A stretch of DNA of 64,000 nucleotides from a virus (Duplodnaviria; Caudoviricetes), in IMG/VR virus record IMGVR_UViG_3300023174_000048, positions 128,001 to 192,000 of that record. One strand, written 5' to 3'. Each line of letters opens with the position of its first letter. Within the stretch, counting starts at the first letter, position 1. A program made the position numbers and the translations under genes. Under the pieces are notes generated by a model, which saw only the letters and a list, made by a program, of their open reading frames with translations, searched no databases and was not told the DNA's origin. Positions 4,770-37,695 of the stretch are shown here, piece by piece.

Positions 4770-4770
4770 A

Positions 4771-20892: not shown

Positions 20893-20895
20893 ATA

Positions 20896-23800
20896 TTAGG
20901 TTCTCATTGGGCGATTGTTTGCGGCTGAGTTTAAATTGCCTTCAAATTGGGTTCTATCGTATTTAGCTACTGTATTTTGACTTGTAATAGCTCCAGCATA
21001 ATGACCAGCACTTTCTCCAGCACTTTTTCCAGCAGCAGAAGCGTGGTTTTGTACAGAGCCTACGTCTAATCTAACCGATTGTGTACCATTTATTTCTGCT
21101 GTTAATGATGTTGGTATTTGACTAGCAGTCTCTGACCAAGTATTTGCTGAACTAGCAATTGTTTGTGAGGCACTAGAGAATGTTTGGCCGAAATTGTTTA
21201 ATGTTTCAGTACTGCTTTGTATCATTTGACTATATGTTTCCATTCCTGATTCGAGTGCGGTGCTTAGTTGGTTCATAGCCTGTCCTACTGCAGCGCTAAT
21301 ACTAGACGATATATCATTAGATACACCACTACTACCACTACTGCCGCCACTACCTCCACTAACTAATCCAGCCTCAGCATAATATTTGGGCGCAACTATT
21401 CCACCATTGGCCAAATAGTTAACAATTCCACCTCTATTGAAATGGCCACTATTTATAGCATTAAGAAGAGGCATATGTTGCTGACTAGACTCTCTGTTAA
21501 CAACAAACTCTCCAGGAGTTAGCATGGCTGGTACAGTATCTGTTCCCTGAGATAATGATGGAACTAATGCTCCATTATTAGCATATACCAAGCCGCCAGA
21601 AGCATACATCATTCTACCACCAGCAGGCTTAGGAACATTCTGTATTTGTCTTTCTCTTTCTGCTTTTTTATATTCTTGTGACTGAGTGTAGTGGTCAGGA
21701 ATAAGTCCTTGCGCCCCTAACTCTTGTGTTCTCTGTTCTATTCTTTTTGATTCTGCTGCATTATCGGCCATTTGTCTGGTTGTGGATTCTGTTTCTACAA
21801 CTAATTGTGCTGCTGCTCTTCCAGGACTAAACATGTTCTCGCCAAAATTTTGAGCATACCCTTGCTGTCTTTGTCTATCATTTTCTTTAGCATAGTCTTC
21901 TGCTGTTTTTTCTCCGCTCATTATTGCTGCTGCTTCGGATGCGTAACTGCCAGCAGCATAACCTCCATAAGCAGCAACGGCGCCAATGCCTGTTGCGGCA
22001 GCAGGACTTGAGGTTCCTAGTCCAAAAACTTTTGCTCCATGACCAACAGAGTGTGCTGTGTGTCGTGCTTCTCCGATCATATCAATTCCTTCTCCAACCA
22101 ATGTTGCTGTGTGTCCTGTACCAAAATGGGCATCAAGATTAGATCCCATTGTTCTCATATTTAATGGATTTCTTCCTCTGGTAGCAACAGCGGACAATCC
22201 TGTAGAAGCAGCATTTCCAGCCAAAGAACTAGTTGTCATACCATGATGACCATGAGAATCATGACTGTCATGATCGTCAACATGACCACCATTACCATAA
22301 TATCTTACTAGTCCACCTTTATTATATCCATGGAATTTCATTAACTTCTTTAAAATTCTTTCTGCTATTTTATTGCCTTTTACTTTTTCGATATTTTCTA
22401 CTAATGTTGTTAGTAGTTCTGATGGATTCTTTTTTATAGCCGATGAGCTGTATCCATTCTTGCTCTTGCCACCACTAATAGAAGATAATCCACTAGGATC
22501 ATCAACAAATTTTTCTATTTCTTTCATTAAGGGCGATTTCTGTAAACTTCTTTTTCCAAAAGGATCTTTTTTACTACCTTTCGTACTTTTTTGAAATAGA
22601 TGACCAAGCTCGTGTTTCACAATACTCTCATCAGCATATTGAGATCCAAAAACTAGTTTTGATTCTGCTGTTGTCATACCAACTTTACTAGAATTTGTTA
22701 CTGGTCTATTTATTCCTTTTATTTGTCTACTAGCATTGATTTTGTCTAGATCAACCGATACGGATTGTGGTGTAGATTTTTCAACAAATTCTGATAAGAA
22801 CTTATTCCTTCGTGCTGGAGTAACATAATCAGCCAAATCACTTGCTAAATTCTCCTGAACTTGTCTGAATGACACCGGGTCTGTAACATTAACTTTTGAT
22901 TTTGTGGCTGTTGTTGGCTTAACTGGTTTAGTTGGAATAGTTGGTTTAGTTGGTTTGGGTTTTACTATAGATGGTCCGGCAACTGTTGTTTTAGCTTTTC
23001 CTAACACGCTTTGGGTCGCTGTGCTATTTGGAACACCTTGATTAACAAGATCTTGAATCTGTTGATATTGTGCTGCTGTTATTTTGGGCTTAACTTGTGG
23101 ACCGGGTGTTGGCATAGTCAAATCAATATTTGATAATTTTTCATCCAATGCTCTGCTTCTTGCTGCTTTAGCTTTGGCCGCTAGTCTACCATAATTACCA
23201 TCATACTCTAATGGATTAATATCGTCTATGCTTCTGATTTTGGTGGGAGCAGACTCTGGGAATGTTACTGGCTTTGCTGGTTTTAAATTCTTATAAGAAG
23301 AAGTAGTGCCTGATCTATTAAGATTTGGTCTTGAATAACTTGGGGCAATACCTCTAACTCCTATAACATCACCCATTTGAGTAGCAACATCTTGAACGCC
23401 CTCAACAAAATTATTAACTGCCCTTCCGGCTCCACGAGCACCAGGAATTCTACCACCCAATCTTCCTGCTCCTCTGGCAGTTGATGTAATAGCTCTATCT
23501 ACTGTTCCAGCAACTCTGCCAACACTAGCAGCACCAGGTATTTTACCAGCAGCCCTACCAACACTAGAAACACCAGGTATTCTACTAGCGACCCTTCCAG
23601 CAGCCCCTGCCATTCGACCGGCAACATTAAATACTGCTCCTTCAGCATTAACTAATGCTCCTGCGCCTTGAGTGCTTCCATACGCAGTAGTTTGAGCAAA
23701 TGCTGTACCAAAGCCAGCCCAACTATCCATACCACCAGCCAGCTCCACATTTCTAGCATCATTACGTTGTAATGCTGTTTGCTCACCAGTTTGTATCGGC

Positions 23801-26800
23801 CCCATACCAGCAACAGCTTGTCCGGCTTCAACAAAACTAGTTGCTCCAGCACCCATAGCCCTTAGTCCAACATCGGCGGCCGCAGAAGTTGCTGCAGAAT
23901 AAGCTCCCTGTTGATTATTTAGTCTGTCGCTGTTTGCCGTAAATGTTCTTGCTCTTATAGCAGCAACATCTTGAGCAGCCGCTATCTCTTGAGGAGATGG
24001 CATTGGTCTGCCATTAGCTCTAGCCTCATCATACATATTTTCGGCTGTTCTGTTTCTTAAATTATTTTCGTCTCCAATTTTAAAAGCTGTATCATCTCCA
24101 GACATAGCATATCCAATACCTCCAACAATAGGAGATGCAACTGTTGCAACTGCTCCGGCAGTTATATTTGCCGCCCCATAAAGGGCGTCTCCAATACCCT
24201 GAGTTACTCCTCCAACATATCCTACTGCTGCCGTAGCAGGATTGCTACTATTTATATATAATGATGCTTGTCTATCTTCTTCGGCTTTTTGCTGTTGTGC
24301 TCTAACCTTTTCTGCCGCACTAACTTGTTGGGCCCCTTCAAATTGTGCTATCGCTTCGCTATTTGCTTGATCCTGTAATAGTTGTTCTGTTGTTGGAACC
24401 TTATAGCTTGCAACAGATTCCTTATAAGGTTTAGGCATATATGATCTTTGTTCATCTCTATATTTGTCTCTTTGCTCTTCTTTAACTTTTCCTTCGGCTA
24501 AGAATTTATTAAATTTATTATCTATTTCTGCTGTTTGAGCATCTTCTTTAGCTTTATTTCTTTCATTGATTACTTGCTGTCTTCTTTGTTTCTTATAAGC
24601 TTCTCTATTTCCTTCATCATCTCTCCATGCTCCTGATTCTAATAGTTGGTTAAATTCAACATCAAATGCTTGTTCTTGAGCTGCTATTTGTGCTCTTTTT
24701 TCTATTCCTATTTTTGTGCTAGTAATAGCACTATCTGCTTCTCTCTTTTTCTTCGTGTCGCTTGAAGTTGTAGCCGTTTGAATTGAAGAAGATAATCCTG
24801 GACTAGCAGTTATTCTATAAACATTTTGTGTTTCTGCTTTTGCTCGTATTTTTGGATCATTACTATATTCTAATGGATCTGTAGCGCCAACAGATTGATA
24901 AGAATTTATTTGACTATTCGGCATAAACAACTGATTTGGATATTTTATCATTGTCTCAGTCGCTAGTACATTCGATGGTGATCCAAGAGGAAAGTTAAAC
25001 CAATCTCTGCGTGAGCTTTCTCTATCTCTAGTTGTTTTTTGAGACTCAAACCTTGGGGTATTAGGATCTCCTCCATATGTATAATTTGTTCCAGCAACAT
25101 AATCTCCAGGCAACGATACTCTAGGACTTGGAACCATTGGACCAATATTAACGCCTAATCTTCCATCCTGATTTTTAATTTCTGGTGTTCTCAAATTAAC
25201 AGAAGTATTAGTCTGGGTTGCTTGTTGAGTTTGCTGTGCCTCATAAGCTCTATTATCGGCTATGCGATTAACCATTCCTTCTAAAGGATTTCTTGTTTGG
25301 TATTTTGGATCATTTGGATCTGGCTTTTGTAAAACCTTATTGGTAGTATAAGATGCTAATCCTGTTTGAACACCAGAAGAGACCGCAGGATCAGTTATAT
25401 CAGGTCTTGCAGTAGTATACTGCTGTCTAATTCCTGATTCGATTGCGGCATTTTGTTGGGCAGCCTGTTGCTCATTGCTTGGTCTTGAGTAGCCTTCATT
25501 TATTCTAGAGGCCGTTGCTGGATCAAGACCGCTAGGATTTACTGCGTTGCTAGTTATTGGAGGCAACGCAGCACTAAATGATAGAGCACGTAAACTTCCT
25601 CTATTTCTACGATCAGAACCTAACTCTTTTAGGGCTGATCTTTCTTCTGGTGTTATCTCATTAGACTGAGCACCTTTACGATAAGCACTATTTACTAAAG
25701 AAGAAATATTACGATCTTTTTCTACAGTATATGGACCGACCTCTCTTTTTATTTGATTAGATTTCAATGTTGCATATTCTGTTTCTTCTTCTGGACTTCT
25801 TCCTTTGCTTCCTTTCATCCACAATGATCGTCTTCGTGAGTCTTCAGATTTGATTTTTTTCTTCTCGTCAATAGCTTCTTGAGTTGGTCTAATTTTTGTT
25901 GTTGTTCCTCTGCCCCACGGAATAACATCTGCTCTTACTAAAGGAACCGGTAATGATGGTTGTATTACTGGTTGTGAAAATTCTTGTGGAGACAGCGACG
26001 TTTGAGCTATTGGAGTATTTAATGCTGCTGTTTCAGCATCGCGTGCTTTTTCAAATCTTTCTGTAGCTCTTTTCTTTTCTTCGTTAAAAAAATTAGCACC
26101 AACAATAGCAGAATTAGGATCCTCCTTTATGCTACCATATCCTGCATCGTTAGCGCTTCTGAGCTGTGCATCGTTTTCTTTATTATTATAATTATCCCAT
26201 CTATTTTGAAATTCTGGTTCATATTTTTTGGCTTCTGATTGTCTTTCATCTTCTGTCATCCCCATCCATCTACCATCGCCTACCTGAGATTGTGCCCAGC
26301 TAGATGATGTTCTAGAAACTACCTCATCAGGTCTTCCTCCAGTTGCTTCTGACATCATCCATGATTCTTTTTGAGCATCTATTCTTTCTTCTTTTCTTTT
26401 TTGTACTTCGCCACCCTGTGCTAAATAAACCACTCCGCCCTTACTATAATTTCCACTATTAATAGCTTTCAATAATGGCAAGTGTTCTGAGGTTGATCTT
26501 GCATTAATCACAAACTCGCCCGGAGTTAACATAGCAGGAACAGTATCAGTTCCTTGTGGTTGGAAATTTACTAATTGACCTTCACTAGCATAAATTAATC
26601 CTCCGCGAGCCTTCGGAGGAGCAACTGGGGCGGCAACTCCGATATTTAATGGAACTTTAGCTCCGCCAGGAGCATTAATTCTACCTTCATTCATATCATT
26701 ATTAAGCATACTAGCTTCAACAGTTGTTCTAAGATCATCTATACTAACCTTAAGGTTGGCATTTGCTGATACTAGAGCCTGCTGAGATTCTAATAAAGCC

Positions 26801-29800: not shown

Positions 29801-32800
29801 GTAATTAATTTTTCTTTTTTCTCAGCTTCTGTTAAAATGGCTTGCTGGGCACCACCCGAACCAAGAACTTTACCTGTTTTTGATTCTTTTAATCCTGCTT
29901 CTAAAAATTGTCGTTTTGCTACTGCTGTTTTAGCTTGATCTCTAACATTCTTTAATGCTTTTTCTGCTGCTATTATAGTGTCTATTGATGCTCCAGTAAT
30001 CTTGAGTCTTTCAACATCCTTAGTCATTGCCTTTTCAATATCTTTATAAGATATGTCAGCTCCTGCCCCAACTTGTTCAAGAACTTTCTTAAAGCTTATC
30101 ATGCTATAACCAGCTTCTTCAAAACCTTTTGTTAATAGTTTAATATTATTAACTAGTTCTGATGAAGCTTCTATACTTTTACTATCAATAGTTTCTGGTC
30201 TGGTTTTTAATTTTTGAACTGCTGGTTCAGCAAAACCTTTTAATCCTTTCATTATTTCTTCAATACTAAAAACACTACCTCCAGTAGCAAATCTTTGAAT
30301 TACTCCTCCACCAACTACTCCTCCCTTATTATAACCCTGTAATTTATCCGCTTTATTTAATGTCTCTAACTTGCCATATCCTATTTTTTCTGCTGCTTTC
30401 TTATTAACAACAAATTCACCAGGAGTTAATAATGCAGGAACAGTGTCCTTTGATGATATTCCTGCTTGTCCTCCTTGAGCAAAGGTCTCGATATTGGTTG
30501 GCTTCAAGGGAGATGATCCAACATATTTTAATGCTAATCCTAGTGGTTTTTCAAAAAGTTTGGATTCAAAAGAATTTACTAATTCGGGATCTCCAGATTG
30601 TATTCTGGACATAAGCTGACCCAATAAAGCCCCTTCTCTTACATCTCCTTCACTTCCGGCATAAATAGATTTTCTTGATCCTCCAGGCAAGGTAAACTCT
30701 GTTCCGTCTTCGGACTTTAATGTTTGAGATCCTTCTTGAACACGTACTCCAACCGACATCATCCCAGCGTCTGGATTTTTATCAAACTTACCTTTTAATC
30801 CGGTTTGATTTTCAGTAGGAGCATATTTATCTTTAAGAGTATCGTAATTATCATGCATCCATTGTACCACTAGTCCTTTTTGTAATTCATAATCTAAATC
30901 ATAAGTTTTTGGATCTAAAGTTTCATCAAAACTTAATACCATTGGTTTTCCTGATCTATCTCCTTGAGCAACAGTGAAGTTGCTTCCTCCATTAACTCTC
31001 ATCTTAGCTTGTTGTTCTGCTTTATTCTTTTCTGTATATAAGTAGAATCCTTCTCCTTGACCATATCCTTTAGCAATATTAGAAAGGGCACCTTTTTCTT
31101 TAAAGCTCTTTAAAACACTATCATCAACTCCGGTATTGCTTCCGTGATATAGTTTAACTTGTCCTCCAGTAGCATATCCTCTATTTTTTCTCCACATTTT
31201 TTCATCATTAGTTTTGGTCTCAAACTCTTTTGGCTTGCGACCTTGTTTTTCCATAGCCTCTTGTATTCTTTTTTGTTTATTAGCCTGGGCAAGTTCATAT
31301 CTTTCTTGTTCTGGTGATGTTTTTTTAGATGGTATTAGTCCAAATCTTTTGTTTATCTCCCAGTCTGGAATAGCATAGTCTTTATATCTATTATCTAATC
31401 GTTCTTCTAATTTTGCTGTGAGTTCTTCTTGGCTCATGCCCAAAGTCTTTGCTCGTGCGGCAATATCGGGTGGGGAATATGATCCTCTTACCCAGCCACC
31501 CTCGGAAAGCATTTGTATGTCTTCTTTGACGGGTTCTGGAATTCCATATTGTTGTCTAAAATGTTTTTGGAATTCTTCAACAGCCTTGCCTCTACTATTA
31601 CTATCTATTGTTCTTTTAACTTCTGTTGGAATATCAGGATCGATACCAAATATTTTTGCTGCTTTAGATCCGATGCCCATTGGAAAGTCAATCGGACGAG
31701 TTCTTAAAGCATCGTCTAATATTGTAGCATCTGCTGATCCAAAAATTTGTTCTAGTAAAGCGCCTTCAATATTACCCTGACCTAATGTTTCTCTTTGTTT
31801 TTTAGTTAATTTCTTTGGAGATATTCCAAGAAGTTTGGCTGCTCCGCCTACAATTTCTTCTGTTTGACCACTAAGATAATCAATTACATTTTGATATTGA
31901 TTTGGTAATCCTCTCTGAACTATTGAAGCATCTATTGATCTTTCTTGTCCAGACGAATCAACTCCAAGATTCCAAGTTTCTGGCCCTAATAATCCAGTAT
32001 ATCCCAATGGATTTAATCCAACTAGTCCTAATTGTTTTGACGATAATACAGCGCTAGTTGTTTCTGCTAGTGACGTGGCCTTTTGAGTTCCTTGTGATTC
32101 ATTAAATTTGTCTATTAGATAGTCTCTTGTTGCAATATAGTAAGCGAGCTTGTCTGCTTTTGTTTCTGGTCTAAATGCAGAATTCCAGTATTTTAATTTT
32201 CCTCCTTCGGCGGTATCTCTTACTGTTTTTCCTGAGAATGGACCAAAACTTGCGTCATTTGGTAATCTGTCTGTTCCAAATCTTTTTAATATCTCTGTTC
32301 CTTGTGCTGGTAATATCCCAGAAGACTTCTTGACCTGAGTAGCCTTTTCTACATTTTTTAGTATTGCTTCTTGTAGTCCAGAAGGCATTGCTGTTGGCAC
32401 CCCACTAAATTCACCGGCCATGCCTTCAGACAATTGGGCCGATATGACATCTTTAGATAAGTCGGATGGCTGTGCTGATACTGATGCTCTGCGTGATGGA
32501 TCTAATCCATAAGCATCTGGATATTTAGCAGATAATAAGGAGATTATATTGTGTGCTCTGTAGCCCAAAAGACTGGAACTCAATTCGTCTCTTTTCTCTC
32601 TCATAGCTTCAATTTGGGCTACTACATCTGGAGCATTGTCTCTTACCCTTTGAGTAATATTTTTGCCGTATGGGCCTCCTGGAGCTTCTGCTAACATTTT
32701 TTGAATTTCAGCATTTGTTTGAGCTTTTTGATTTGCTCCATATTTTGTTATTTCTTCAATAAGCATAGGAACCATCACGCTGCGATTTCTTAGCTGTGCT

Positions 32801-35800
32801 CTATTGCCCATGAGAACAGAAGCAACTTCTGGGCTAACAAAACTAGTTAAAGCTTCATCATCTCCATTAATCACTGCTTGCCTAACTTTAGTAGCACTAA
32901 TATCGTCTATCCTTGGAATATCTGTTACGTCAACTCCTGCTTTTTCATATTTTTGAAGAGCACCGGCTTTTTTCCCTGATGTGATTGCTAATGCTCCTTT
33001 TAGTTTAGCAAATTTTCTACGACCATTAGCTCCTTGAACCTCCATCATTTTTGGCAAAACATCTCCTCTGCCAGTTGATTCGGCACTTATCATGCCTCCA
33101 GGAAAATTAACTCCTGCTAATAATGCTCTAAAATCTGCTGGAAATATGCCATATCGTGCAGCATGTGCGAGCTTCTCTGCGTCGGTATCTCCTTCTCCTC
33201 TGTCCATCGATAAATTAGGAGCAACACTCACTATAATATCTTCTGCTGAAGCATTTGGATTTCTAGAAATCATATTACTTAATAAAGTATCAAATGCTCC
33301 ACGATGGCCTCTGGTCGGTGGAGCAAATCCACCAGTGTAGTATCCACCAGCCTGAACAATTTCTGGCAATTCTTCTTCAGTCTTACGTCTTAAACCAAAA
33401 CCTCCTGGTTTGCGACCAAGAACGGTTGCCCTTTTACCTAATTCATCCCTTAATATACTCTCTTCTACTGTAAAATCTCTAGGAGCAATATTTGTAATTC
33501 CTGGTTTACGACCATATAGACCTTCCCCCGTTAAATCTCTCTGAACTCTATTAGCTCCTATTTGATCTTGTTCTTCTGTTGTATTGGAACTTAATATATA
33601 TGCTCTATCAACATCTTTTAAATATGCATCTAATTTTTCTTGACTAGCAGTAGATGTTAAGACTATAACCTCATTAACTTTAGCAATATCTTCAGGGCTA
33701 AGAATTGAAGAGCGAATAGTTTTTCTTAAAGTTGCATCATCTGGAGATCCTTTTCCCGTAGCCAAACTACTTTTGCCTGATCCTGCTGCTCCAGCGATTG
33801 CTGTTAATTTTGATAAAGACTCTTCTTTTCTTGCTTGTGCTGCTAATTTTGCTAATTCTCTGCTATATAAACTAGTATTTGTAATTCCAAGTTTTTCCAT
33901 GGCTGGTCCAACAATATCGGCATTTGCTGGATCTCGTAAAACATCTGTATCTATAATTCCTATATTTCTTTGTACTTTTCCACCAGCAGCATAAGTTTGT
34001 CTCTGAATACCAGCACTACCCAATAGATCAGTTAGTGTAGAATCTAAAGCTCCTTGAAGATTACTATCAAGTCTAGGATAGTTCTGAACTAGTGTTGTTA
34101 AAAATTCTTCTTTCCCACTATCTTCTATTCTATCAATATAAGATTGAGAAATACTATTATCTAATAATACCTGATTAACTTCTGGATTTAATGGTTTAAA
34201 ATCTTTAGCCTTTTTAATACCAAGAGATTTTGCCCAAAGAGAGGATGCGGCGGTGGCTGCTTCGGGAGTTTTAGCAGGCTTGTCTCCCCTGCTAATAGAT
34301 CGATTTTGTTGTATAATTTGATCTAATGTTCCAACTTTGTATGAACGTCCATATACAACATCCGAACTATTATAGCTGGACTCTAAAGCATCAAATGCAT
34401 CTGCTAAATCATTATTATCTCCACTAAATAGTGAAACAACTCTTGATTTATATTTATCAAAACTCTCTGATGATCGTGTTCTTAATCCTTGAAATAATTG
34501 ATGGGTCATTTCATGATAAAAAGTATCATTTTTTCTACCAGAAAGTCTTCCGGTGCTCATGGTGATCGCGCCACGGCCAGTAGCTTTAGCTGTGGTTTGC
34601 ATCTGATCCATAGCAGTTAATTCTGCTTGGTTTTTTAATTTTTTAGTATTAGATATCTTCATTTGAAGATCATTAATCTCATCCCAAGTTTGTTTAGCTA
34701 ATGCTTCATCATATGAAAAAGATCCGTCATCAAAAGTTTTTACTGGTGTTTTTATTATTTTCTTCAATTCTTTTTGTTTTTCTGCTACTAATTTTTCATA
34801 TCCATAAAGATCCTGGTCATTGGCCTCTGTATATCCAGAACCAGATAGGTCATAGCCAGATGTGCTTTTAGTACCCATACCCGTTCTATCAAATTGACCA
34901 AGACCTTTTAATCCCAGATCAGTAAAATCAATATGACTTGGTAGAGCTAATGATAAATCTTCTTTTGGTAGTCCTATGAATTTAGCAAAGTCACTCATTC
35001 TTCTATAAATAGCGCTATTAGCTAATTTACTCTTGAAAGAATCTGCAAACTGCTTTCTATCGAATGGTATTGAGTCAAAAGCTTCGGTTGCTTTTGCTTG
35101 ATCCACTTTGAATCTAAAGTCTTCTGGATATTCCAAGAAGGATCCTCCACTAAAAGCTTTATCAACTTGTTCTTTATTTAGCTTGGCGTCTATTTCTTTG
35201 AAATAGGCATTACTAATTCTTTTGGGAAATGGAAAAGTTCCACTTCCAAATGATCGGGTTTCTTTTGCTTTTCCTCCGGCCATGAATTTTTGAATTTTTC
35301 CACCAAGATTTTTTTCTGTAAATCTACCTGTTTTAAATTCATCAGATATAGTTAAAATATTTGAATCGCCTTCTATAAGTAATCTATTATATCTATCTTT
35401 ATCTCCTTGTACAATTTGTTTCTTTAACTGCTTCAATTTACCTTCATCTGCATTATTCAGATTTTTTTTCAGTTCTTCTGTAGCCTTGTTTCCAGCCTCC
35501 ACAGCCGTTAGTCCTGAATCTGTTACTATTGTTTCTGGTGGTATAACCCAATCATTACTCTTTTTTCCTGTTTTTTTAACCTTACTTAATATATTAGCAT
35601 TTTTTTCATATTTTGATATTTGATCTAATTTTGCTTGACTGACTTTACTTTCTCCAGTTTTTTTAGAGTTAGCTCTCTCGCCCATAGTCTCATATGCATC
35701 AAAACCTCCTACTCTGAATTCTACTTCAAAAGGCTTTGGTCTAGGAATAGCAGTTGCAATAAAGCTATCTCCATCTTTTACTTTTTTAATACTTTCAAGT

Positions 35801-37593
35801 GATCTTATCTCAACAGCACCACCGCTAGCAAACCCTTTTCTTCGGTTTGATCCTCCAGCTCTTATACTTCCTCCACCACCATACTTATTCATATTATGAA
35901 GATTATCCGATCCTATAGTCTCAACAGCTTTTTTTCGTATCACAAATTCTCCTGGCTCTAACATTGCAGGAACAGTATCTCCACTACCAGTGCCTGGAAC
36001 AACACCTCCTCTTGCGAATTTTCTAATTACTCCACCACTAGCTTTACCATCTGGTCCTCTTTTAACTCCAGTACTAAAACCACTAGCAAATTGAGTTAAA
36101 GCTTTGGCGCCCTTAAATGCTGTTATAACAGCAAGAGCGGGTAATATTCCTTTAACAGCATCTGTCACTTTAATTAGTCCACTAGCTAAACTTAAAGCTC
36201 CTCTTATTAATGACTGAAAACCTTTTGATTGTCCTATTTCTCTGAATAGAGCAAAAAACTCTTGTCTTACTTTGCTAATTTGATTGGCCAAAGAAAGTTG
36301 TGCTGTTGCAGCATCTTTCGCTAATGATCCTTGACCAGCTTGTGCAGTCTTTAATGCTTCTTGAGCAACTGTGAACTGCTGAATAAGCGGAATAACTTTA
36401 CCAATTTGTCGGAATCCACCAAGTTCTTCAACTATCTTAGAGAACTGAGCAGTTCTTGGATCAATTCCACTCAATCCCTTACTTAATAATTCAACAGCTT
36501 TATAGGCTCCTACGAATTTACCTTCGGTATCAGTTAGATTAACTCCAAACTCTTTGAGAGAATCAATTGTGCTTCCTCTCTGAATACGAGTAAAAATAGT
36601 TCTTAAGCCAGTAGCAATAGTTTCAGCACTTTCACGAGTTGTAGCACGAACACTTGTGAACACTGCTATAAATTCATTTAAAGCATCCTTACCTTCACTA
36701 ACTCCTTTACTTGCAGTTGCAAATACGCTACCCGTTCTTTGAACAGCAGTAATAATGTCAGAAGATTCAACAGCGAATCTTGCAGCAACAGTATTTACAG
36801 CACCTAGTGCTCCTTCTAAATCATCAGCACTAATACCAAACTGTCTCATTAATGCGATACTTCCTTCTACTGTCTCATTCATATTATCAAATGATGGAGC
36901 TAAACTACTTAAAGCTAAAGCTCTTAATGCTTTTTCTGTTTCTCTCGCACTCAAACCAGCCTGTGCTAATGTAGAAGCAACAGAGGTTAAATCTTTAGAA
37001 CTAACACCAAATGTTGTTGACAGATTTGTAATTTGTTCTTGTAGTTTTGCAAGGCCAGATGACGATTCTCCGGTTACCTGTTGTAATTTAACTAATTCTT
37101 TATCATAATCAATAAATGCTTGAACACCCTGACTAATACTATTTGTTAATCCGTATATAACACTAGTAACAGTACTAAATGCTACGAATCTTCTAATGGC
37201 AAGACCAGCCTGTTTACCGAACTCTTGCATCTCTGCTGATGCTGATCCAAGATCTTTTGCTGACGAGGCTGATGCTTTGTTAAGTTTATTAACAGCATTA
37301 GCTGCTGCATTTATTTGTTGTGGAACGTTATTTATTTTGACGCTATTTATGCTGTTACCAAAAGCTTTGATAGCTGCTGAAGCAGCAGTAGCAGACGTTG
37401 TCGTTGAACCAAATGCGGCATTTAAGCCTTTGAGAGACGATGACAAAGCCGCAACATTTTTAGTAACAGCAGGATCAAGCTTAAAAGTAATATTTGCATT
37501 AATGTTACCAAGATCTTTTTTAATTTGTGCAGCAATTTGCTTTACATTTGTTGGTCCTTGTAAATTCAGTTGTGCAGTTAAGTTGAATGCCAT
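20896..37593 (-). CDS. Giant tape measure protein (TP901-type core) fused to multiple enzymatic cargo domains (polyvalent TMP)
   Basis: 5565-aa ORF after the tail tube and chaperone genes. The N-terminal ~500 aa carry the TP901-family TMP core (FIDYDKELVKLQQVTG...TLAQAG...QFGI...NTVAARFAVESSDI...TIATGLRTIFTRI); later long Ala/Glu/Lys coiled-coil tracts. Cargo motifs are listed under findings. Confidence 0.92.
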   Translation of the reverse strand: MAFNLTAQLNLQGPTNVKQIAAQIKKDLGNINANITFKLDPAVTKNVAALSSSLKGLNAAFGSTTTSATAASAAIKAFGNSINSVKINNVPQQINAAANAVNKLNKASASSAKDLGSASAEMQEFGKQAGLAIRRFVAFSTVTSVIYGLTNSISQGVQAFIDYDKELVKLQQVTGESSSGLAKLQEQITNLSTTFGVSSKDLTSVASTLAQAGLSARETEKALRALALSSLAPSFDNMNETVEGSIALMRQFGISADDLEGALGAVNTVAARFAVESSDIITAVQRTGSVFATASKGVSEGKDALNEFIAVFTSVRATTRESAETIATGLRTIFTRIQRGSTIDSLKEFGVNLTDTEGKFVGAYKAVELLSKGLSGIDPRTAQFSKIVEELGGFRQIGKVIPLIQQFTVAQEALKTAQAGQGSLAKDAATAQLSLANQISKVRQEFFALFREIGQSKGFQSLIRGALSLASGLIKVTDAVKGILPALAVITAFKGAKALTQFASGFSTGVKRGPDGKASGGVIRKFARGGVVPGTGSGDTVPAMLEPGEFVIRKKAVETIGSDNLHNMNKYGGGGSIRAGGSNRRKGFASGGAVEIRSLESIKKVKDGDSFIATAIPRPKPFEVEFRVGGFDAYETMGERANSKKTGESKVSQAKLDQISKYEKNANILSKVKKTGKKSNDWVIPPETIVTDSGLTAVEAGNKATEELKKNLNNADEGKLKQLKKQIVQGDKDRYNRLLIEGDSNILTISDEFKTGRFTEKNLGGKIQKFMAGGKAKETRSFGSGTFPFPKRISNAYFKEIDAKLNKEQVDKAFSGGSFLEYPEDFRFKVDQAKATEAFDSIPFDRKQFADSFKSKLANSAIYRRMSDFAKFIGLPKEDLSLALPSHIDFTDLGLKGLGQFDRTGMGTKSTSGYDLSGSGYTEANDQDLYGYEKLVAEKQKELKKIIKTPVKTFDDGSFSYDEALAKQTWDEINDLQMKISNTKKLKNQAELTAMDQMQTTAKATGRGAITMSTGRLSGRKNDTFYHEMTHQLFQGLRTRSSESFDKYKSRVVSLFSGDNNDLADAFDALESSYNSSDVVYGRSYKVGTLDQIIQQNRSISRGDKPAKTPEAATAASSLWAKSLGIKKAKDFKPLNPEVNQVLLDNSISQSYIDRIEDSGKEEFLTTLVQNYPRLDSNLQGALDSTLTDLLGSAGIQRQTYAAGGKVQRNIGIIDTDVLRDPANADIVGPAMEKLGITNTSLYSRELAKLAAQARKEESLSKLTAIAGAAGSGKSSLATGKGSPDDATLRKTIRSSILSPEDIAKVNEVIVLTSTASQEKLDAYLKDVDRAYILSSNTTEEQDQIGANRVQRDLTGEGLYGRKPGITNIAPRDFTVEESILRDELGKRATVLGRKPGGFGLRRKTEEELPEIVQAGGYYTGGFAPPTRGHRGAFDTLLSNMISRNPNASAEDIIVSVAPNLSMDRGEGDTDAEKLAHAARYGIFPADFRALLAGVNFPGGMISAESTGRGDVLPKMMEVQGANGRRKFAKLKGALAITSGKKAGALQKYEKAGVDVTDIPRIDDISATKVRQAVINGDDEALTSFVSPEVASVLMGNRAQLRNRSVMVPMLIEEITKYGANQKAQTNAEIQKMLAEAPGGPYGKNITQRVRDNAPDVVAQIEAMREKRDELSSSLLGYRAHNIISLLSAKYPDAYGLDPSRRASVSAQPSDLSKDVISAQLSEGMAGEFSGVPTAMPSGLQEAILKNVEKATQVKKSSGILPAQGTEILKRFGTDRLPNDASFGPFSGKTVRDTAEGGKLKYWNSAFRPETKADKLAYYIATRDYLIDKFNESQGTQKATSLAETTSAVLSSKQLGLVGLNPLGYTGLLGPETWNLGVDSSGQERSIDASIVQRGLPNQYQNVIDYLSGQTEEIVGGAAKLLGISPKKLTKKQRETLGQGNIEGALLEQIFGSADATILDDALRTRPIDFPMGIGSKAAKIFGIDPDIPTEVKRTIDSNSRGKAVEEFQKHFRQQYGIPEPVKEDIQMLSEGGWVRGSYSPPDIAARAKTLGMSQEELTAKLEERLDNRYKDYAIPDWEINKRFGLIPSKKTSPEQERYELAQANKQKRIQEAMEKQGRKPKEFETKTNDEKMWRKNRGYATGGQVKLYHGSNTGVDDSVLKSFKEKGALSNIAKGYGQGEGFYLYTEKNKAEQQAKMRVNGGSNFTVAQGDRSGKPMVLSFDETLDPKTYDLDYELQKGLVVQWMHDNYDTLKDKYAPTENQTGLKGKFDKNPDAGMMSVGVRVQEGSQTLKSEDGTEFTLPGGSRKSIYAGSEGDVREGALLGQLMSRIQSGDPELVNSFESKLFEKPLGLALKYVGSSPLKPTNIETFAQGGQAGISSKDTVPALLTPGEFVVNKKAAEKIGYGKLETLNKADKLQGYNKGGVVGGGVIQRFATGGSVFSIEEIMKGLKGFAEPAVQKLKTRPETIDSKSIEASSELVNNIKLLTKGFEEAGYSMISFKKVLEQVGAGADISYKDIEKAMTKDVERLKITGASIDTIIAAEKALKNVRDQAKTAVAKRQFLEAGLKESKTGKVLGSGGAQQAILTEAEKKEKLITAQRKSQIEKDLIKKDPSLLGDKDKLERRTNRRLEKEQRQIKEQAFSSATEKVTGIKRSELSGMGIGGADIQSYVSQSMTDRKTLAQMDKQLIAMRLEEYKNAGTVRGVSVKSASEALSLAKEEVSKRREMINEMAKEQGEKGVGAGGLTDIRNSPIKKAVQERYFSGTMSQGIGTALGDVGMVAGLVGGQGKNIANLMYDTSTDEGKIAAAGKGAAIEQAGSTLATGLTTASQLMAINPLLGGLTALGTVVYAATDYFTDFTGAQETAALEMEKNLRFEEVAASEKDLAKAFKDFEKDLGNIDLQKALDKALVRSSESSLKAVSAETKVAQNEKGKTRTWTEFLSGAEKPKMDTQDFNELDSKIAERNADSGDKAFALISQKINTGASVESIQADKELIGARRALVLADEDALKTVRARIMEEGGYEKVSKEKQDAILDEVANQKILTNVQVQSAIKTKQMSDALEAADKAGRKLAASFEKLSNIISESVNRIKFESDVRKSSAEKSRSALRGQSEDNGPKLRELNVLENPNAYSEKDFNQALQSATAGVDEKTRNQLIGGAQLQQQLPNAITKSIAEKLSTKGSLGVEEAKTEAIKTTNEQIDKTNLSDEQKTSLKKQAETRINNLAEEAKKKNDTPQAELDAFREGLGDADNILGAFGVKTLEAVKALSSFKQGALADFSEGLRDASKAAKDAQNYFKKARDIRAQGDMNLREVMTGVGETYDEKQARVMGDVAGLAGGETSVGGIKNRIVDLQAQRTAVEEKRQGMSDPDELKKSAIQLRSLDDQLRDTREALDTLASSTELVEKAFDDLKNVRDLQKNRESFVNTLLTNTPEEADKLNKTFIRLQRNLSGGLNGASNQRDARKAFNQTLRETGSVREATKAGNTVLANQRKETLALSQDPGVRAAQELNIRNQYAQGKGKPGVSADQAVADYFKQQQLQLTKSMAIESGMMNNPLVQQSIAAMENPNADPAMKEASSKYLQSVGLQADATKAQGELALLESQQALVSANANLKVSIDDLRTTVEASMLNNDMNEGRINAPGGAKVPLNIGVAAPVAPPKARGGLIYASEGQLVNFQPQGTDTVPAMLTPGEFVINARSTSEHLPLLKAINSGNYSKGGVVYLAQGGEVQKRKEERIDAQKESWMMSEATGGRPDEVVSRTSSSWAQSQVGDGRWMGMTEDERQSEAKKYEPEFQNRWDNYNNKENDAQLRSANDAGYGSIKEDPNSAIVGANFFNEEKKRATERFEKARDAETAALNTPIAQTSLSPQEFSQPVIQPSLPVPLVRADVIPWGRGTTTKIRPTQEAIDEKKKIKSEDSRRRSLWMKGSKGRSPEEETEYATLKSNQIKREVGPYTVEKDRNISSLVNSAYRKGAQSNEITPEERSALKELGSDRRNRGSLRALSFSAALPPITSNAVNPSGLDPATASRINEGYSRPSNEQQAAQQNAAIESGIRQQYTTARPDITDPAVSSGVQTGLASYTTNKVLQKPDPNDPKYQTRNPLEGMVNRIADNRAYEAQQTQQATQTNTSVNLRTPEIKNQDGRLGVNIGPMVPSPRVSLPGDYVAGTNYTYGGDPNTPRFESQKTTRDRESSRRDWFNFPLGSPSNVLATETMIKYPNQLFMPNSQINSYQSVGATDPLEYSNDPKIRAKAETQNVYRITASPGLSSSIQTATTSSDTKKKREADSAITSTKIGIEKRAQIAAQEQAFDVEFNQLLESGAWRDDEGNREAYKKQRRQQVINERNKAKEDAQTAEIDNKFNKFLAEGKVKEEQRDKYRDEQRSYMPKPYKESVASYKVPTTEQLLQDQANSEAIAQFEGAQQVSAAEKVRAQQQKAEEDRQASLYINSSNPATAAVGYVGGVTQGIGDALYGAANITAGAVATVASPIVGGIGYAMSGDDTAFKIGDENNLRNRTAENMYDEARANGRPMPSPQEIAAAQDVAAIRARTFTANSDRLNNQQGAYSAATSAAADVGLRAMGAGATSFVEAGQAVAGMGPIQTGEQTALQRNDARNVELAGGMDSWAGFGTAFAQTTAYGSTQGAGALVNAEGAVFNVAGRMAGAAGRVASRIPGVSSVGRAAGKIPGAASVGRVAGTVDRAITSTARGAGRLGGRIPGARGAGRAVNNFVEGVQDVATQMGDVIGVRGIAPSYSRPNLNRSGTTSSYKNLKPAKPVTFPESAPTKIRSIDDINPLEYDGNYGRLAAKAKAARSRALDEKLSNIDLTMPTPGPQVKPKITAAQYQQIQDLVNQGVPNSTATQSVLGKAKTTVAGPSIVKPKPTKPTIPTKPVKPTTATKSKVNVTDPVSFRQVQENLASDLADYVTPARRNKFLSEFVEKSTPQSVSVDLDKINASRQIKGINRPVTNSSKVGMTTAESKLVFGSQYADESIVKHELGHLFQKSTKGSKKDPFGKRSLQKSPLMKEIEKFVDDPSGLSSISGGKSKNGYSSSAIKKNPSELLTTLVENIEKVKGNKIAERILKKLMKFHGYNKGGLVRYYGNGGHVDDHDSHDSHGHHGMTTSSLAGNAASTGLSAVATRGRNPLNMRTMGSNLDAHFGTGHTATLVGEGIDMIGEARHTAHSVGHGAKVFGLGTSSPAAATGIGAVAAYGGYAAGSYASEAAAIMSGEKTAEDYAKENDRQRQQGYAQNFGENMFSPGRAAAQLVVETESTTRQMADNAAESKRIEQRTQELGAQGLIPDHYTQSQEYKKAERERQIQNVPKPAGGRMMYASGGLVYANNGALVPSLSQGTDTVPAMLTPGEFVVNRESSQQHMPLLNAINSGHFNRGGIVNYLANGGIVAPKYYAEAGLVSGGSGGSSGSSGVSNDISSSISAAVGQAMNQLSTALESGMETYSQMIQSSTETLNNFGQTFSSASQTIASSANTWSETASQIPTSLTAEINGTQSVRLDVGSVQNHASAAGKSAGESAGHYAGAITSQNTVAKYDRTQFEGNLNSAANNRPMRT

Positions 37594-37623
37594 AATTTGA
37601 TTGTCCTAATTAATTATTTAGCT

Positions 37624-37668
37624 AAAAAAATATTCCCAGCCACAAGAAAAATCTCATGATTGGGAATA
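37624..37668 (-). terminator. Rho-independent terminator immediately upstream of the TMP gene
   Basis: Minus strand reads TATTCCCA-A-TCATGAGA-TTTT-TCTTGTGG-C-TGGGAATA-TTTTTTT: an 8-bp perfect outer stem, an inner stem with G-U pairs, and a 7-T tract. Confidence 0.8.
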
Positions 37669-37695
37669 CTAAAAAGAAGAATTATGTTATAAAAA

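What the first reader, a model, noticed from the sequence alone, without database searches (positions are those of the whole stretch)
20896..37593. 5565-aa tape measure protein that doubles as a multi-enzyme effector cassette
Seen in sequence: after a canonical TP901-type TMP core (aa 1 to ~500) the same ORF carries, in order, an SNase nuclease, HExxH peptidase, P-loop kinase, (T/H)xGH nucleotidyltransferase, PD-(D/E)xK-like nuclease, HGS-type ADP-ribosyltransferase, a long coiled coil with Gly/Ala-rich hydrophobic segments, and a second HExxH peptidase. Established: TMPs leave the tail during ejection; polyvalent proteins of phages and conjugative elements (Iyer et al. 2017) combine metallopeptidase, ART and nuclease domains. 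Inference: this phage uses the tail lumen as a delivery tube for enzymes that enter the cell with or before the DNA, to disarm defences or take over the host. At the usual ~0.15 nm per residue the whole protein would imply a tail of about 830 nm; excluding the two cargo blocks (about 3400 aa) leaves about 2200 aa, or about 330 nm.
Basis: partly seen in the sequence, partly recalled or inferred. Interest (0 to 1): 0.92.

Follow-up and report, generated by a model that had tools for sequence, protein, structure and literature searches.

The report
Giant tape measure carrying swappable enzymes
An uncultured lake phage encodes a real 5565-residue tail tape measure protein whose conserved ruler parts are interrupted by exchangeable enzyme modules (a nuclease, an ADP-ribosyltransferase-fold domain, a nucleotidyltransferase), each fenced off by a short motif from the region where phage lambda cuts its own tape measure, so the tail ruler probably also serves as a multi-enzyme injection package.

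Summary
The ORF (20896-37593, minus strand, 5565 aa) is real. Two runs from different studies hold it without a difference, and over 50 relatives carry 2328-7577-aa versions. Residues 146-479 match the TP901 tape-measure model (E 4e-32).

Only the N-terminal core, a central helical/hydrophobic block (aa 2455-3660) and repeated junction modules are common to all 24 fetched full-length relatives. The rest is gained, lost or reordered.

Status of the claimed domains:
- **SNase nuclease:** fold found in five structure libraries; catalytic-type residues invariant.
- **ADP-ribosyltransferase:** every Z>=5 row of an unbiased PDB search is an ART; nearest named relative is "ART-PolyVal-like", with an H-Y-D site.
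- **HIGH nucleotidyltransferase:** both signature motifs invariant, plus weak profile hits.
- **P-loop:** Walker A only.
- **Two HExxH modules and the PD-(D/E)xK-like module:** motif level only.

New here: modules are bounded by [FY]AxGG boxes (8 seen, 0.29 expected). The four longer junctions match lambda gpH residues 729-803, within the Gly-rich region where gpH is cleaved.

Delivery into the host is inferred, by analogy with Thermus phage P23-45 (RNA polymerase fused to its tape measure).

This scan has noted similar giant modular tape measures before on other DNA.

Verdict: new variant of a known kind; interest about 0.66.

The parts
20896..37593 (-). Whole tape measure gene, 5565 codons
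   Evidence: contigs of two runs span it with no difference
36034..37593 (-). aa 1-520: TP901-type tape measure core with a hydrophobic segment at aa 472-501; present in all relatives
   Evidence: TIGR01760 E 4.3e-32; PF10145 E 2e-25; PHROG tape-measure families
35809..36033 (-). aa 521-595: junction module J1 (FARGG ... DTVPAMLEPGEFV ... FASGG), like the C-terminal module of lambda gpH
35299..35808 (-). aa 596-765: staphylococcal-nuclease-fold module. The residues D-G-D, R, D, E and a later R are invariant in 10 homologues. Present in only some relatives.
   Evidence: VIA 1sta_A Z 7.0, rmsd 3.0, 103 aligned; Foldseek PDB SNase rows, prob up to 0.90; AFDB thermonuclease, prob 0.99, TM 0.54; Atlas PF00565 cluster, TM 0.59; BFVD TNase-like, prob 1.00; invariant residues
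33994..35298 (-). aa 766-1200: mainly helical module with invariant Y-H-E-x-T-H-Q (HEMTH at aa 1027). Confidently modelled, no known fold found. Lies before or after the next module in different relatives.
   Evidence: model pLDDT 86.9; no match; invariants; order permuted in G006, G008 and G009; homologues occur almost only inside giant tape measures
33394..33993 (-). aa 1201-1400: P-loop NTPase module (Walker A GAAGSGKS at aa 1268)
   Evidence: G-x-x-G-x-G-K invariant in 10 homologues; Walker A level hits only
32464..33393 (-). aa 1401-1710: HIGH-type (cytidylyltransferase-like) nucleotidyltransferase. G-x-F-x-P-x-T-x-G-H at aa 1427 and I-S-x-T-x-V-R at aa 1565 are invariant.
   Evidence: PF16581 E 0.011 in the window and 1.5e-4 in relatives, both below the curated cut-off; PDB profile hit 3gmi E 3.1e-4, plus NMNAT and PPAT weakly at the HIGH motif; language-model neighbours PF01467, score 0.93
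31486..32463 (-). aa 1711-2036: module of unknown fold. Its C-terminal ~100 aa (G..E ... IDFP ... PT(E/D)xKRT) is the most widespread accessory piece.
   Evidence: no profile hit; model is moderate and mostly helical
30484..31176 (-). aa 2140-2370: ADP-ribosyltransferase-fold module (LYHGS ... GQGEGFY ... DLDYE). Also exists as free-standing 240-285-aa proteins.
   Evidence: VIA on Foldseek's PDB hits: all 50 rows are ARTs, Tpt1 Z 9.4; unbiased VIA over 48,161 chains: 32 chains reach Z>=5 and every listed row at Z>=5 is an ART-fold protein; AFDB A0A1J4W6I9 E 1.2e-10, TM 0.70, and 'ART-PolyVal-like' E 1e-3; Atlas DUF3990/PARP; free-standing homologues; invariants
30229..30483 (-). aa 2371-2455: junction module J2 (FAQGG ... 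DTVPALLTPGEFV ... FATGG)
26614..30228 (-). aa 2456-3660: proline-poor, highly charged block with a hydrophobic Gly/Ala segment (aa 2831-2853). Present in all 24 full-length relatives, so it is core and not cargo.
26404..26613 (-). aa 3661-3730: junction module J3
   Evidence: 112 phage records hit by this module, annotated as tape measure (three as endolysin) wherever the listed rows carry an annotation
23092..26403 (-). aa 3731-4834: second variable block (Pro/Gln-rich, then Gly/Ala-rich with a hydrophobic segment at aa 4475-4498). Found only in G001, G002 and one other relative.
   Evidence: absent from the related contigs of runs X3 and X5
22276..23091 (-). aa 4835-5106: second HExxH module (HELGH at aa 4994). 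Shares only a C-terminal piece with the first.
21394..21618 (-). aa 5326-5400: junction module J4 (YASGG ... DTVPAMLTPGEFV ... LANGG)
20899..21393 (-). aa 5401-5565: Ser/Gly/Ala-rich C-terminal end, shared with the closer relatives

Best explanation
This is the tail tape measure protein of an uncultured freshwater tailed phage. Its nearest record is 131 kb.

It is built from two kinds of parts.
1. An obligatory scaffold. This is the TP901-type N-terminal core, a central helical and hydrophobic block, a short C-terminal end, and four copies of a ~70-aa junction module. The junction module matches the C-terminal module of lambda gpH.
2. Exchangeable accessory modules inserted between the scaffold parts. 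They are a staphylococcal-nuclease-type nuclease, a P-loop NTPase joined to a HIGH-type nucleotidyltransferase, an ADP-ribosyltransferase-fold domain of the H-Y-D 'polyvalent protein' kind, two HExxH modules, and several modules of unknown fold.

Each module ends at a short [FY]-A-x-G-G box.

Shown here:
- The gene is real.
- It is a tape measure.
- It has a core/accessory structure.
- The nuclease and ART folds are present.
- The nucleotidyltransferase signatures are present.
- The boundary motifs coincide with the module borders.

Inferred:
- Like other tape measures, the protein fills the tail tube and is expelled first at infection.
- The accessory modules travel with it. They are probably released from one another by cleavage at the boxes, as lambda gpH and T5 pb2 are cleaved in or beside similar Gly-rich sequence.
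- They act in the host envelope or cytoplasm at the very start of infection: the nuclease on nucleic acid, the ART on host proteins or nucleic acids, and the NTPase/nucleotidyltransferase on nucleotides.
For: Gene reality.

Tape measure identity:
- TIGR01760 E 4.3e-32.
- PF10145.
- PHROG tape-measure families.
- Position between head-type genes upstream and large fn3/FGE-sulfatase tail proteins downstream.

Core versus accessory:
- jackhmmer and BLAST against 24 full-length relatives and about 35 further giant proteins.
- In 1.84 billion representative proteins, the SNase+HExxH slice has only 43 relatives, nearly all of them giant proteins with the same N-terminal core.

Folds:
- SNase.
- ART. 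The model places H2150 in strand 1, Y2184 in strand 2 and D2232 in a later strand. This matches the H-Y-D site that PMC5512222 describes for polyvalent-protein ARTs.
- Nucleotidyltransferase.

Boundaries:
- 8 strict [FY][AM]xGG boxes against 0.29 expected; the maximum in 2000 shuffles was 4.
- 50% of 381 homology end-points lie within 25 aa of a box or junction, although only 9.1% of the protein does.
- A profile of 180 junction copies hits lambda gpH 729-803 at E 8.5e-8.
- gpH is cleaved in the Gly-rich region near its C terminus (PMC12617516).
- T5 pb2 is cleaved after R1127, in '...VPR|AEGG...' (PMC10038345; sequence).

Precedents for delivery:
- P23-45 gp96 is a 5002-aa tape measure with a working virion RNA polymerase (PMC10770324).
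- The solved pre-ejectosome of cyanophage A4 holds an ART-fold domain similar to this one (9k3a_B residues 1418-1614, Z 5.6).
Against: - There is no direct evidence that the accessory parts are in virions or enter cells.
- Enzymatic activity is not shown. The HExxH, PD-(D/E)xK-like and several other modules have no recognisable fold.
- No Pfam model passes its cut-off outside the tape measure core.
- Three to six copies of folded 20-50 kDa domains do not obviously fit a ~4 nm tube lumen (my own knowledge). Either the modules are unfolded there or they lengthen the tail.
- The junction profile does not hit T5 pb2 (E 0.22), so the T5 analogy rests on four residues.
- The cleavage site in lambda is not mapped, and the protease is unknown.
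- Staphylococcal-type nucleases are typically calcium-dependent secreted enzymes (my own knowledge). That points to the outside of the cell or the periplasm rather than the cytoplasm.
Confidence: 0.6

Rival explanations
1. The modules work at the cell surface or in the envelope, not in the cytoplasm. On this reading they are penetration aids: a nuclease against extracellular or periplasmic nucleic acid, and HExxH modules as wall-degrading peptidases like T5 pb2C. They are exposed when the tape measure leaves the tube.
For: - The tape measures of T5 and of several other phages carry wall-degrading enzymes (PMC10038345; PMC12617516).
- The SNase fold and its calcium-site residues are kept.
- Hydrophobic segments suggest membrane insertion.
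Against: - ART-fold enzymes and nucleotidyltransferases need NAD or NTPs, which are cytoplasmic (my own knowledge).
- No lysozyme, transglycosylase or M23 signature was found.
- The HExxH modules match no known peptidase fold.
Confidence: 0.15
2. The tape measure gene is used as a polyprotein carrier. The modules are cut off during tail assembly in the producing cell and act there, or are discarded, and are not packaged.
For: - Boundary boxes resemble known tape measure processing regions.
- It was long assumed that the fragments cleaved from T5 and lambda tape measures are lost.
- Free-standing copies of the ART module exist.
Against: - Recent structures show that the cleaved C-terminal fragments of T5 and lambda stay in the tail.
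- The modules lie between obligatory scaffold parts, so their removal would break the ruler into pieces.
- The only tested case, P23-45, packages the fused enzyme.
Confidence: 0.12
3. The inserts are mainly length spacers. Relatives differ in tail length, and the enzyme-like folds are relics without activity.
For: - Frame lengths in relatives range from 2329 to 7577 aa.
- Tape measure length sets tail length in tested phages (PMC7302621).
- Pfam models do not reach their cut-offs on the modules.
Against: - Catalytic-type residues are invariant across homologues only 21-60% identical: SNase, ART, nucleotidyltransferase and Walker A, HExxH.
- Globular domains make poor spacers compared with the coiled coil already present.
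Confidence: 0.1
4. The 16.7-kb frame is an assembly artefact that joins several genes.
For: The four junction modules are repeated at DNA level at 68-82% over 44 nt, which could mislead an assembler.
Against: - One 28.9-kb contig in run X1, and two overlapping contigs in run X2 from another study, match with 0 differences at flat depth.
- Independent relatives keep collinear giant frames without stops.
Confidence: 0.02

Closest known systems
Thermus phage P23-45 gp96 (5002-aa tape measure with an N-terminal virion RNA polymerase; Chaban et al. 2024, PMC10770324)
   Same: A giant tape measure that also carries an enzyme destined for the host. It has hydrophobic segments and a metallopeptidase-type motif in the same protein.
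   Different: - gp96 has one enzyme, placed at the N terminus. Here several unrelated modules are inserted after the tape measure core.
- Here the modules are exchangeable between relatives and bounded by a repeated motif.
- No RNA polymerase was found here.
- No sequence comparison with gp96 was made.
Polyvalent proteins of phages and conjugative elements (Iyer et al. 2017, PMC5512222)
   Same: - Several unrelated enzymatic domains in one virion-associated polypeptide.
- An ART with an H-Y-D site.
- HExxH modules proposed to process the chain.
- The gene lies among late virion genes.
   Different: - Those proteins are tied to MuF, portal or N4-type polymerase, that is, to the head. The paper never mentions tape measures.
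- Pfam's polyvalent-protein models do not hit this protein.
Lambda gpH to gpH* + gpHC, and T5 pb2 to pb2* + pb2C (processing of tape measures)
   Same: - The junction module here matches lambda gpH 729-803, which holds FATGG ... RGEFV ... YATGG. [quoted passage not shown]
- T5 is cut just before A-E-G-G, which separates an enzyme domain from the ruler.
   Different: - Lambda and T5 each have one such site, near the C terminus. This protein has four full junction modules and further single boxes.
- The lambda site is unmapped.
- The T5 resemblance covers only four residues, and the junction profile does not hit T5.
Tape measures with wall-degrading motifs (T5 pb2; mycobacteriophage TM4: my own knowledge for TM4)
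   Same: Enzymatic parts are embedded in a tape measure.
   Different: Those parts are peptidoglycan hydrolases used for entry. Here the recognisable modules are a nuclease, an ART fold and nucleotide enzymes.
Cyanophage A4 pre-ejectosome protein (PDB 9k3a chain B)
   Same: A solved virion ejection protein with an ART-fold domain that aligns to this module: residues 1418-1614, Z 5.6, rmsd 3.6, 94 aligned. It is also Foldseek's first PDB hit.
   Different: It belongs to a short-tailed phage, is stored in the head, and is not a tape measure.

Membership tests
TP901-type tail tape measure protein (TIGR01760 / PF10145) | Profile match above the curated cut-off | tested here: met
   TIGR01760: 111.5 bits against a cut-off of 28.8, aa 146-479, covering profile positions 1-329 of 349. 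PF10145: 90.3 bits against 33.2.
TP901-type tail tape measure protein (TIGR01760 / PF10145) | Gene sits in the tail module, after the head genes and before the distal tail and fibre genes | tested here: met
   - Upstream: a weak major-head hit, head decoration and virion structural hits.
- Downstream: minor tail protein PHROGs and large fn3/FGE-sulfatase proteins.
- The tail tube and chaperone genes themselves were not recognised.
TP901-type tail tape measure protein (TIGR01760 / PF10145) | Its length sets the tail length | not testable with these tools
   This needs electron microscopy of virions. No cultured member is known: no match among 50,697 phage records at DNA level.
Polyvalent proteins (Iyer et al. 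2017) | Several unrelated enzymatic domains in one polypeptide encoded among virion genes | tested here: met
   SNase fold, ART fold, and P-loop plus HIGH nucleotidyltransferase in one ORF.
Polyvalent proteins (Iyer et al. 2017) | ART of the H-Y-D (Tox-ART-HYD2 / ART-PolyVal) kind | tested here: inconclusive
   - For: fold neighbour named 'ART-PolyVal-like', E 1e-3, prob 0.98. An Atlas PARP cluster has PF18760 in 21% of its members. H, Y and D are invariant and lie in successive strands of the model.
- Against: no Pfam PF18760 sequence match at E<=1.
Polyvalent proteins (Iyer et al. 2017) | Zincin-like MPTase domain | tested here: inconclusive
   HExxH is invariant in 22 homologues. No Pfam, PDB-profile or fold match was found.
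Polyvalent proteins (Iyer et al. 2017) | Linkage to MuF, portal, N4-type polymerase or a conjugation apparatus | tested here: not met
   The fusion is to a tape measure core instead. The paper has no occurrence of 'tape'.
Staphylococcal nuclease (SNase, PF00565) | OB-fold of thermonuclease | tested here: met
   - 1sta_A: Z 7.0, rmsd 3.0, 103 of 137 residues aligned.
- AFDB thermonuclease family: prob 0.99, TM 0.54.
- Atlas PF00565 cluster: TM 0.59.
- BFVD: prob 1.00.
Staphylococcal nuclease (SNase, PF00565) | Calcium-site and catalytic residues (D21, R35, D40, E43, R87 in S. aureus numbering, from my own knowledge) | tested here: met
   D-G-D, R, D-x-Y-E and a later R are invariant in 10 homologues. 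The correspondence is by motif order, not by a residue-level structural alignment.
Staphylococcal nuclease (SNase, PF00565) | Pfam or PDB sequence-profile match | tested here: not met
   No PF00565 hit at E<=1. The family profile finds no SNase chain in the PDB.
HIGH-motif nucleotidyltransferases (cytidylyltransferase-like, PF01467 clan) | (H/T)xGH motif near the N terminus and ISxTxxR motif about 140 aa later | tested here: met
   G-x-F-x-P-x-T-x-G-H and I-S-x-T-x-V-R are invariant in 10 homologues.
HIGH-motif nucleotidyltransferases (cytidylyltransferase-like, PF01467 clan) | Profile or fold match | tested here: inconclusive
   - PF16581: E 0.011 in the window and 1.5e-4 in relatives, both below the curated cut-off.
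- PDB 3gmi: E 3.1e-4 at the ISxT motif.
- NMNAT (E 0.37) and PPAT (E 2) at the HIGH motif.
- Language-model neighbours: PF01467, score 0.93.
PD-(D/E)xK nucleases | Alpha-beta-beta-beta-alpha-beta core with D and (D/E)xK on adjacent strands | tested here: inconclusive
   - An E...IDFP...PT(E/D)xK pattern is conserved, but K is T in 4 of 26 homologues.
- The model (pLDDT 60-82 there) shows only two short strands among helices.
- No profile hit.
- The fold searches were filled by the ART domain.
Lambda gpH C-terminal module | Sequence-profile match to gpH's Gly-rich C-terminal region | tested here: met
   A profile of 180 junction copies hits lambda gpH 729-803 at 19.3 bits and E 8.5e-8, in a two-sequence search. 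The same module hits 112 phage records, annotated as tape measure (three as endolysin) wherever the listed rows carry an annotation.

The most novel reading that the evidence does not exclude
The protein is a self-punctuated polyprotein. On this reading the [FY]AxGG boxes and the gpH-like junction modules are cleavage and docking signals. At assembly or ejection they cut the tape measure into a set of separate effector enzymes plus ruler pieces, possibly through its own HExxH modules. One gene would then load the tail with an exchangeable cocktail of injected enzymes. It would also reveal the still unknown rule for how lambda-type tape measures are processed.
Probability: 0.3. Interest if true: 0.82.

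Novelty: new variant of a known kind. Interest (0 to 1): 0.66.

Why it matters
Tape measures are usually treated as rulers that sometimes carry a wall-degrading tip. One tested case, P23-45, shows that a tape measure can carry a cytoplasmic enzyme.

This family would extend that case into a general, modular delivery device.
- More than 50 lake-phage tape measures mix and match nuclease, ART and nucleotide-enzyme modules between conserved ruler parts.
- It links the 'polyvalent protein' idea, so far tied to the phage head, to the tail.
- It gives a concrete sequence candidate, [FY]AxGG within the gpH-like module, for tape measure processing. The site and protease of that processing are still unknown in lambda.
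- The natural series of relatives with and without each module is a ready-made test of whether folded inserts count towards tail length.

Tried and rejected
1. Direct Pfam, NCBIfam and PHROG scans of overlapping slices of the window protein, and of 52 slices from 22 relatives, found nothing past the core. The exceptions were weak PF16581 and, in relatives, EF-hand hits.
2. Single-sequence and family-profile searches of PDB sequences gave nothing for the ART, SNase, HExxH and PD-(D/E)xK-like modules.
3. The word-indexed search for free-standing relatives of the P-loop/nucleotidyltransferase slice found none. The same search for the second HExxH module found one fragment.
4. The language-model Atlas search gave no usable hit for the ART module.
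5. I tested whether the two HExxH modules are homologous. hhalign gives probability 15%, over a 40-residue C-terminal piece that ends in the boundary box. This reading is rejected as unproven.
6. I tested whether the junction module equals the T5 pb2 cleavage region. The profile does not hit pb2 (E 0.22), and only A-x-G-G is shared. I kept it as a weak analogy only.
7. I considered a NadR-like NAD salvage pair (kinase plus NMN adenylyltransferase). The hits do not discriminate between NMNAT, PPAT, cytidylyltransferase and the MJ0951 family, so I make no substrate claim.
8. No match to any deposited phage genome at DNA level.
9. The tail type (contractile or not) could not be settled. No tube or sheath gene was recognised upstream.
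Full report
**1. The observation**

The window has a single open frame at 20896..37593 on the minus strand, 5565 codons. It is not an assembly artefact.
- In public run X1, one 28,876-nt contig covers window 20500-38000 without a single difference.
- In run X2, from another study, two overlapping contigs do the same at flat depth.
- Both runs may be sources of the window. The independent evidence is therefore the relatives.
- The nearest virus record (G001, 131 kb, 95% complete) has a 5646-aa open frame (5642 aa from its start codon). It is 82% identical and collinear over aa 1-5106.
- 30 further IMG/VR records encode the same N-terminal 500 residues at 57-96% identity, in uninterrupted frames of 2329 to 7577 aa.
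- The runs that hold this DNA are lake and freshwater metagenomes.

**2. It is a tape measure**

- Residues 146-479 match NCBIfam TIGR01760 (tape_meas_TP901) at 111.5 bits against a cut-off of 28.8.
- They also match PF10145 at E 2e-25.
- Fourteen PHROG tape-measure families cover aa 17-600.
- Upstream genes give head-type hits: a weak major head hit, head decoration and virion structural protein.
- Downstream lie large proteins with fn3 and FGE-sulfatase-like domains and minor-tail PHROGs.
- The tube, sheath and chaperone genes were not recognisable. Whether the tail contracts is therefore open.

**3. Core and accessory parts**

I fetched the complete genes of 24 relatives. A search of 1.84 billion representative proteins added about 35 more giant proteins. 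Block-wise jackhmmer and BLAST show the following.
- The N-terminal core (aa 1-520) and the central block (aa 2455-3660) are present in all 24 full-length relatives. The central block is proline-poor, 25-35% charged, and has a hydrophobic Gly/Ala segment at aa 2831-2853.
- Everything else is variable. The table gives where each variable block was found.

| Block | Residues | Where it occurs |
|---|---|---|
| SNase-like | 596-765 | 13 of the 75 sequences searched (24 full-length relatives plus the proteins returned by the database searches) |
| First HExxH | 764-1211 | 40 proteins, at positions from residue 1 to 2766 |
| P-loop + nucleotidyltransferase | 1199-1710 | 34 proteins |
| ART-like | 2140-2370 | a handful of giants, plus free-standing 240-285-aa proteins |
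| Second variable block | 3731-4834 | G001, G002 and one other |

- In G006, G008 and G009 the first HExxH block lies after the P-loop/nucleotidyltransferase block, not before it. The order is therefore permuted.
- The related contigs in runs X3 and X5 cover the N-terminal two thirds of the gene but not the C-terminal variable block.

**4. What the modules are**

No Pfam or NCBIfam model passes its cut-off outside the core, in the window or in 52 slices from 22 relatives. I therefore folded two slices with family alignments.

*Slice aa 596-1211 (mean pLDDT 86.9).*
- The first 169 residues have the staphylococcal nuclease fold.
  - VIA: 1sta_A, Z 7.0, rmsd 3.0, 103 aligned.
  - Foldseek PDB: SNase rows with probability up to 0.90.
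  - AlphaFold DB: thermonuclease family, probability 0.99, TM 0.54.
  - ESM Atlas: PF00565 cluster, TM 0.59.
  - BFVD: TNase-like, probability 1.00.
- In 10 homologues that are 29-79% identical to the window's module, D-G-D, R, D-x-Y-E and a later R are invariant. By motif order these correspond to the calcium-site and catalytic residues of the S. aureus enzyme (my own knowledge).
- The next 430 residues are confidently modelled and mostly helical.
  - HEMTH lies in a helix that follows a strand.
  - Y-H-E-x-x-H-Q is invariant in 22 homologues.
  - No library gives a fold match.
  - 'Peptidase' stays a motif-level guess.

*Slice aa 1710-2460 (mean pLDDT 67).*
- Residues 2139-2378 are well modelled and have the ADP-ribosyltransferase fold.
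- In an unbiased alignment to 48,161 PDB chains, 32 chains reach Z>=5. Every listed row at Z>=5 is an ART-superfamily protein: KptA/Tpt1 8.1, PARP13, PARP16 and PARP10 6.5-7.0, then Arr, pertussis, diphtheria and others.
- The re-alignment of Foldseek's hits puts Tpt1 at Z 9.4.
- AlphaFold DB gives an unnamed 206-aa protein at E 1.2e-10 (TM 0.70), and a protein named 'ART-PolyVal-like' at E 1e-3.
- The Atlas gives DUF3990 and PARP clusters.
- In the family alignment, H2150, Y2184 and D2232/D2234/E2236 are invariant or nearly so. In the model they lie in the first, second and a later strand. This is the H-Y-D arrangement that Iyer et al. describe for the ARTs of polyvalent proteins.
- A solved ejection protein of cyanophage A4 (9k3a_B, residues 1418-1614) has a similar domain, at Z 5.6.

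*Parts not folded.*
  - In 10 homologues the Walker A motif, G-x-F-x-P-x-T-x-G-H and I-S-x-T-x-V-R are invariant.
  - The family profile hits PDB 3gmi (MJ0951, HIGH_NTase1 family) at E 3.1e-4 on the ISxT motif. It hits NMNAT and PPAT weakly on the HIGH motif.
  - PF16581 scores E 0.011 in the window and 1.5e-4 in relatives.
  - Language-model neighbours are viral PF01467 clusters at score 0.93.
  - Superfamily membership is likely. The substrate is unknown.
- The PD-(D/E)xK-like piece (aa ~1940-2036) is the most widespread accessory element.
  - It keeps an E...IDFP...PT(E/D)xK pattern, but K is replaced in 4 of 26 homologues.
  - The model is mostly helical there.
  - Nothing matches it.
- The second HExxH module (aa 4835-5106) shares only a 40-residue C-terminal piece with the first: hhalign probability 15%.

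**5.

- A strict [FY][AM]xGG box occurs 8 times: at aa 526, 588, 770, 1201, 2140, 2371, 2435 and 5330. The expectation is 0.29, and the maximum in 2000 shuffles was 4.
- Relaxed versions sit at aa 2029, 3724, 5099 and 5394.
- These positions are the block borders that I had derived independently from homology. Of 381 internal HSP ends, 50% lie within 25 aa of a box or junction, although only 9.1% of the protein does.
- Four boxes pairs flank a longer junction module, (F/Y)AxGG ... DTVPAMLTPGEFV ... (F/L)AxGG, at aa 539, 2383, 3683 and 5352. Relatives have one to eight copies.
- A profile of 180 such modules hits lambda gpH residues 729-803, which read FATGG ... RGEFV ... YATGG, at E 8.5e-8.
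- The module also hits 112 deposited phage records. Wherever the listed rows carry an annotation it is a tape measure, or in three records an endolysin.
[quoted passage not shown] The exact site and the protease are unknown (PMC12617516).
- T5 pb2 is cut after R1127, directly before A-E-G-G. The cut separates its enzyme domain from the ruler (PMC10038345; sequence). The junction profile itself does not hit pb2.
- In the same lake metagenome, several otherwise unrelated contigs match the core of J4 with 2-4 mismatches over 35-51 nt. The junction could therefore also serve as a recombination point for module exchange.

**6. Mechanism**

Shown:
- a real tape measure;
- obligatory scaffold plus exchangeable modules;
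- nuclease and ART folds with conserved active-site-type residues;
- nucleotidyltransferase signatures;
- motif-marked borders related to the processing region of lambda gpH.

Inferred:
- The protein fills the tube and leaves first at infection. This is established for tape measures in general.
- The modules go with it, probably separated by cleavage at the boxes.
- They act on the host at once.
- The P23-45 case shows that a tape-measure-fused enzyme can work in the host.

I put this at about 0.6. The main rivals are action in the envelope only, a polyprotein whose modules are removed before packaging, and mere length spacers.

P23-45's tape measure is described as defining its very long tail. 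The figure of about 800 nm for that tail is from my own knowledge.

**7. Comparison and novelty**

- Enzyme-bearing tape measures are known: T5, TM4 and P23-45.
- Multi-enzyme injected 'polyvalent' proteins are known too, but those are tied to the phage head. Iyer et al. do not mention tape measures at all.
- A 2023 survey saw mosaic signals in tape measures but could not confirm any genuine recent case (PMC10684548).
- Four full-text searches for such a protein found no description of a tape measure with an array of exchangeable effector modules.
- I class it as a new variant of a known kind.
- This scan has already noted comparable giant modular tape measures on other DNA (e1-3266856, e1-3410600, e1-4024441, e1-3484703, e1-3489226; e1-5339526, e1-5339529).
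- From those notes I took two leads and checked both. The P23-45 paper holds. The gpH-like nature of the junction holds for lambda and is weak for T5.

Noticed in passing
window 21497-21547 (core of junction J4): In run X1 at least seven other contigs match only these 35-51 nt, with 2-4 mismatches, and are unlike the window on both sides. One of them is 15.9 kb at depth 137. The junction motif is therefore conserved at DNA level between different phages of the same lake, and could be a recombination point.
   Followed up: partly
window 51549-55841 and 55858-60723 (minus strand): Two further giant virion genes of 1430 and 1621 aa lie upstream. The second has a strong head-decoration PHROG hit (E 4e-58, aa 778-1007) joined to tail-fibre-like parts.
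   Followed up: no
window 17437-20892 and 6799-10470 (minus strand): Two large proteins downstream of the tape measure each carry an FGE-sulfatase-like domain (E 2.5e-11 and 6.8e-12). They are possibly receptor-binding parts.
   Followed up: no
window 37696-38643 and 38585-38887 (minus strand): Two overlapping frames lie directly upstream of the tape measure: one of 100 aa and one of about 310 aa, with an A-rich stretch (AAAAAG) in the overlap. This recalls the frameshifted chaperone pair of long-tailed phages. No family match was found.
   Followed up: partly
window about 22230-22290 (aa ~5102-5120 of the tape measure): A histidine/aspartate-rich run (HVDDHDSHDSHGHHG) follows the boundary box after the second HExxH module. 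It may bind metal.
   Followed up: no
relatives' tape measures (alignments A1, A2): Some relatives carry EF-hand motifs (best E 1e-6), and one carries a holin-like segment, inside their tape measures. The cargo repertoire is therefore wider than in this window.
   Followed up: no
window 45209-46207 (minus strand): A 332-aa protein has a proprotein-convertase P-domain at its C terminus (E 2e-10). Its N-terminal PHROG 1084 domain recurs in the 132-aa ORF at 61804-62202.
   Followed up: no
PDB 9k3a chain B, residues 1418-1614: The solved pre-ejectosome protein of cyanophage A4 contains a domain that aligns with the ART-fold module here (Z 5.6). I did not check whether the depositors describe it as an ART.
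   Followed up: no
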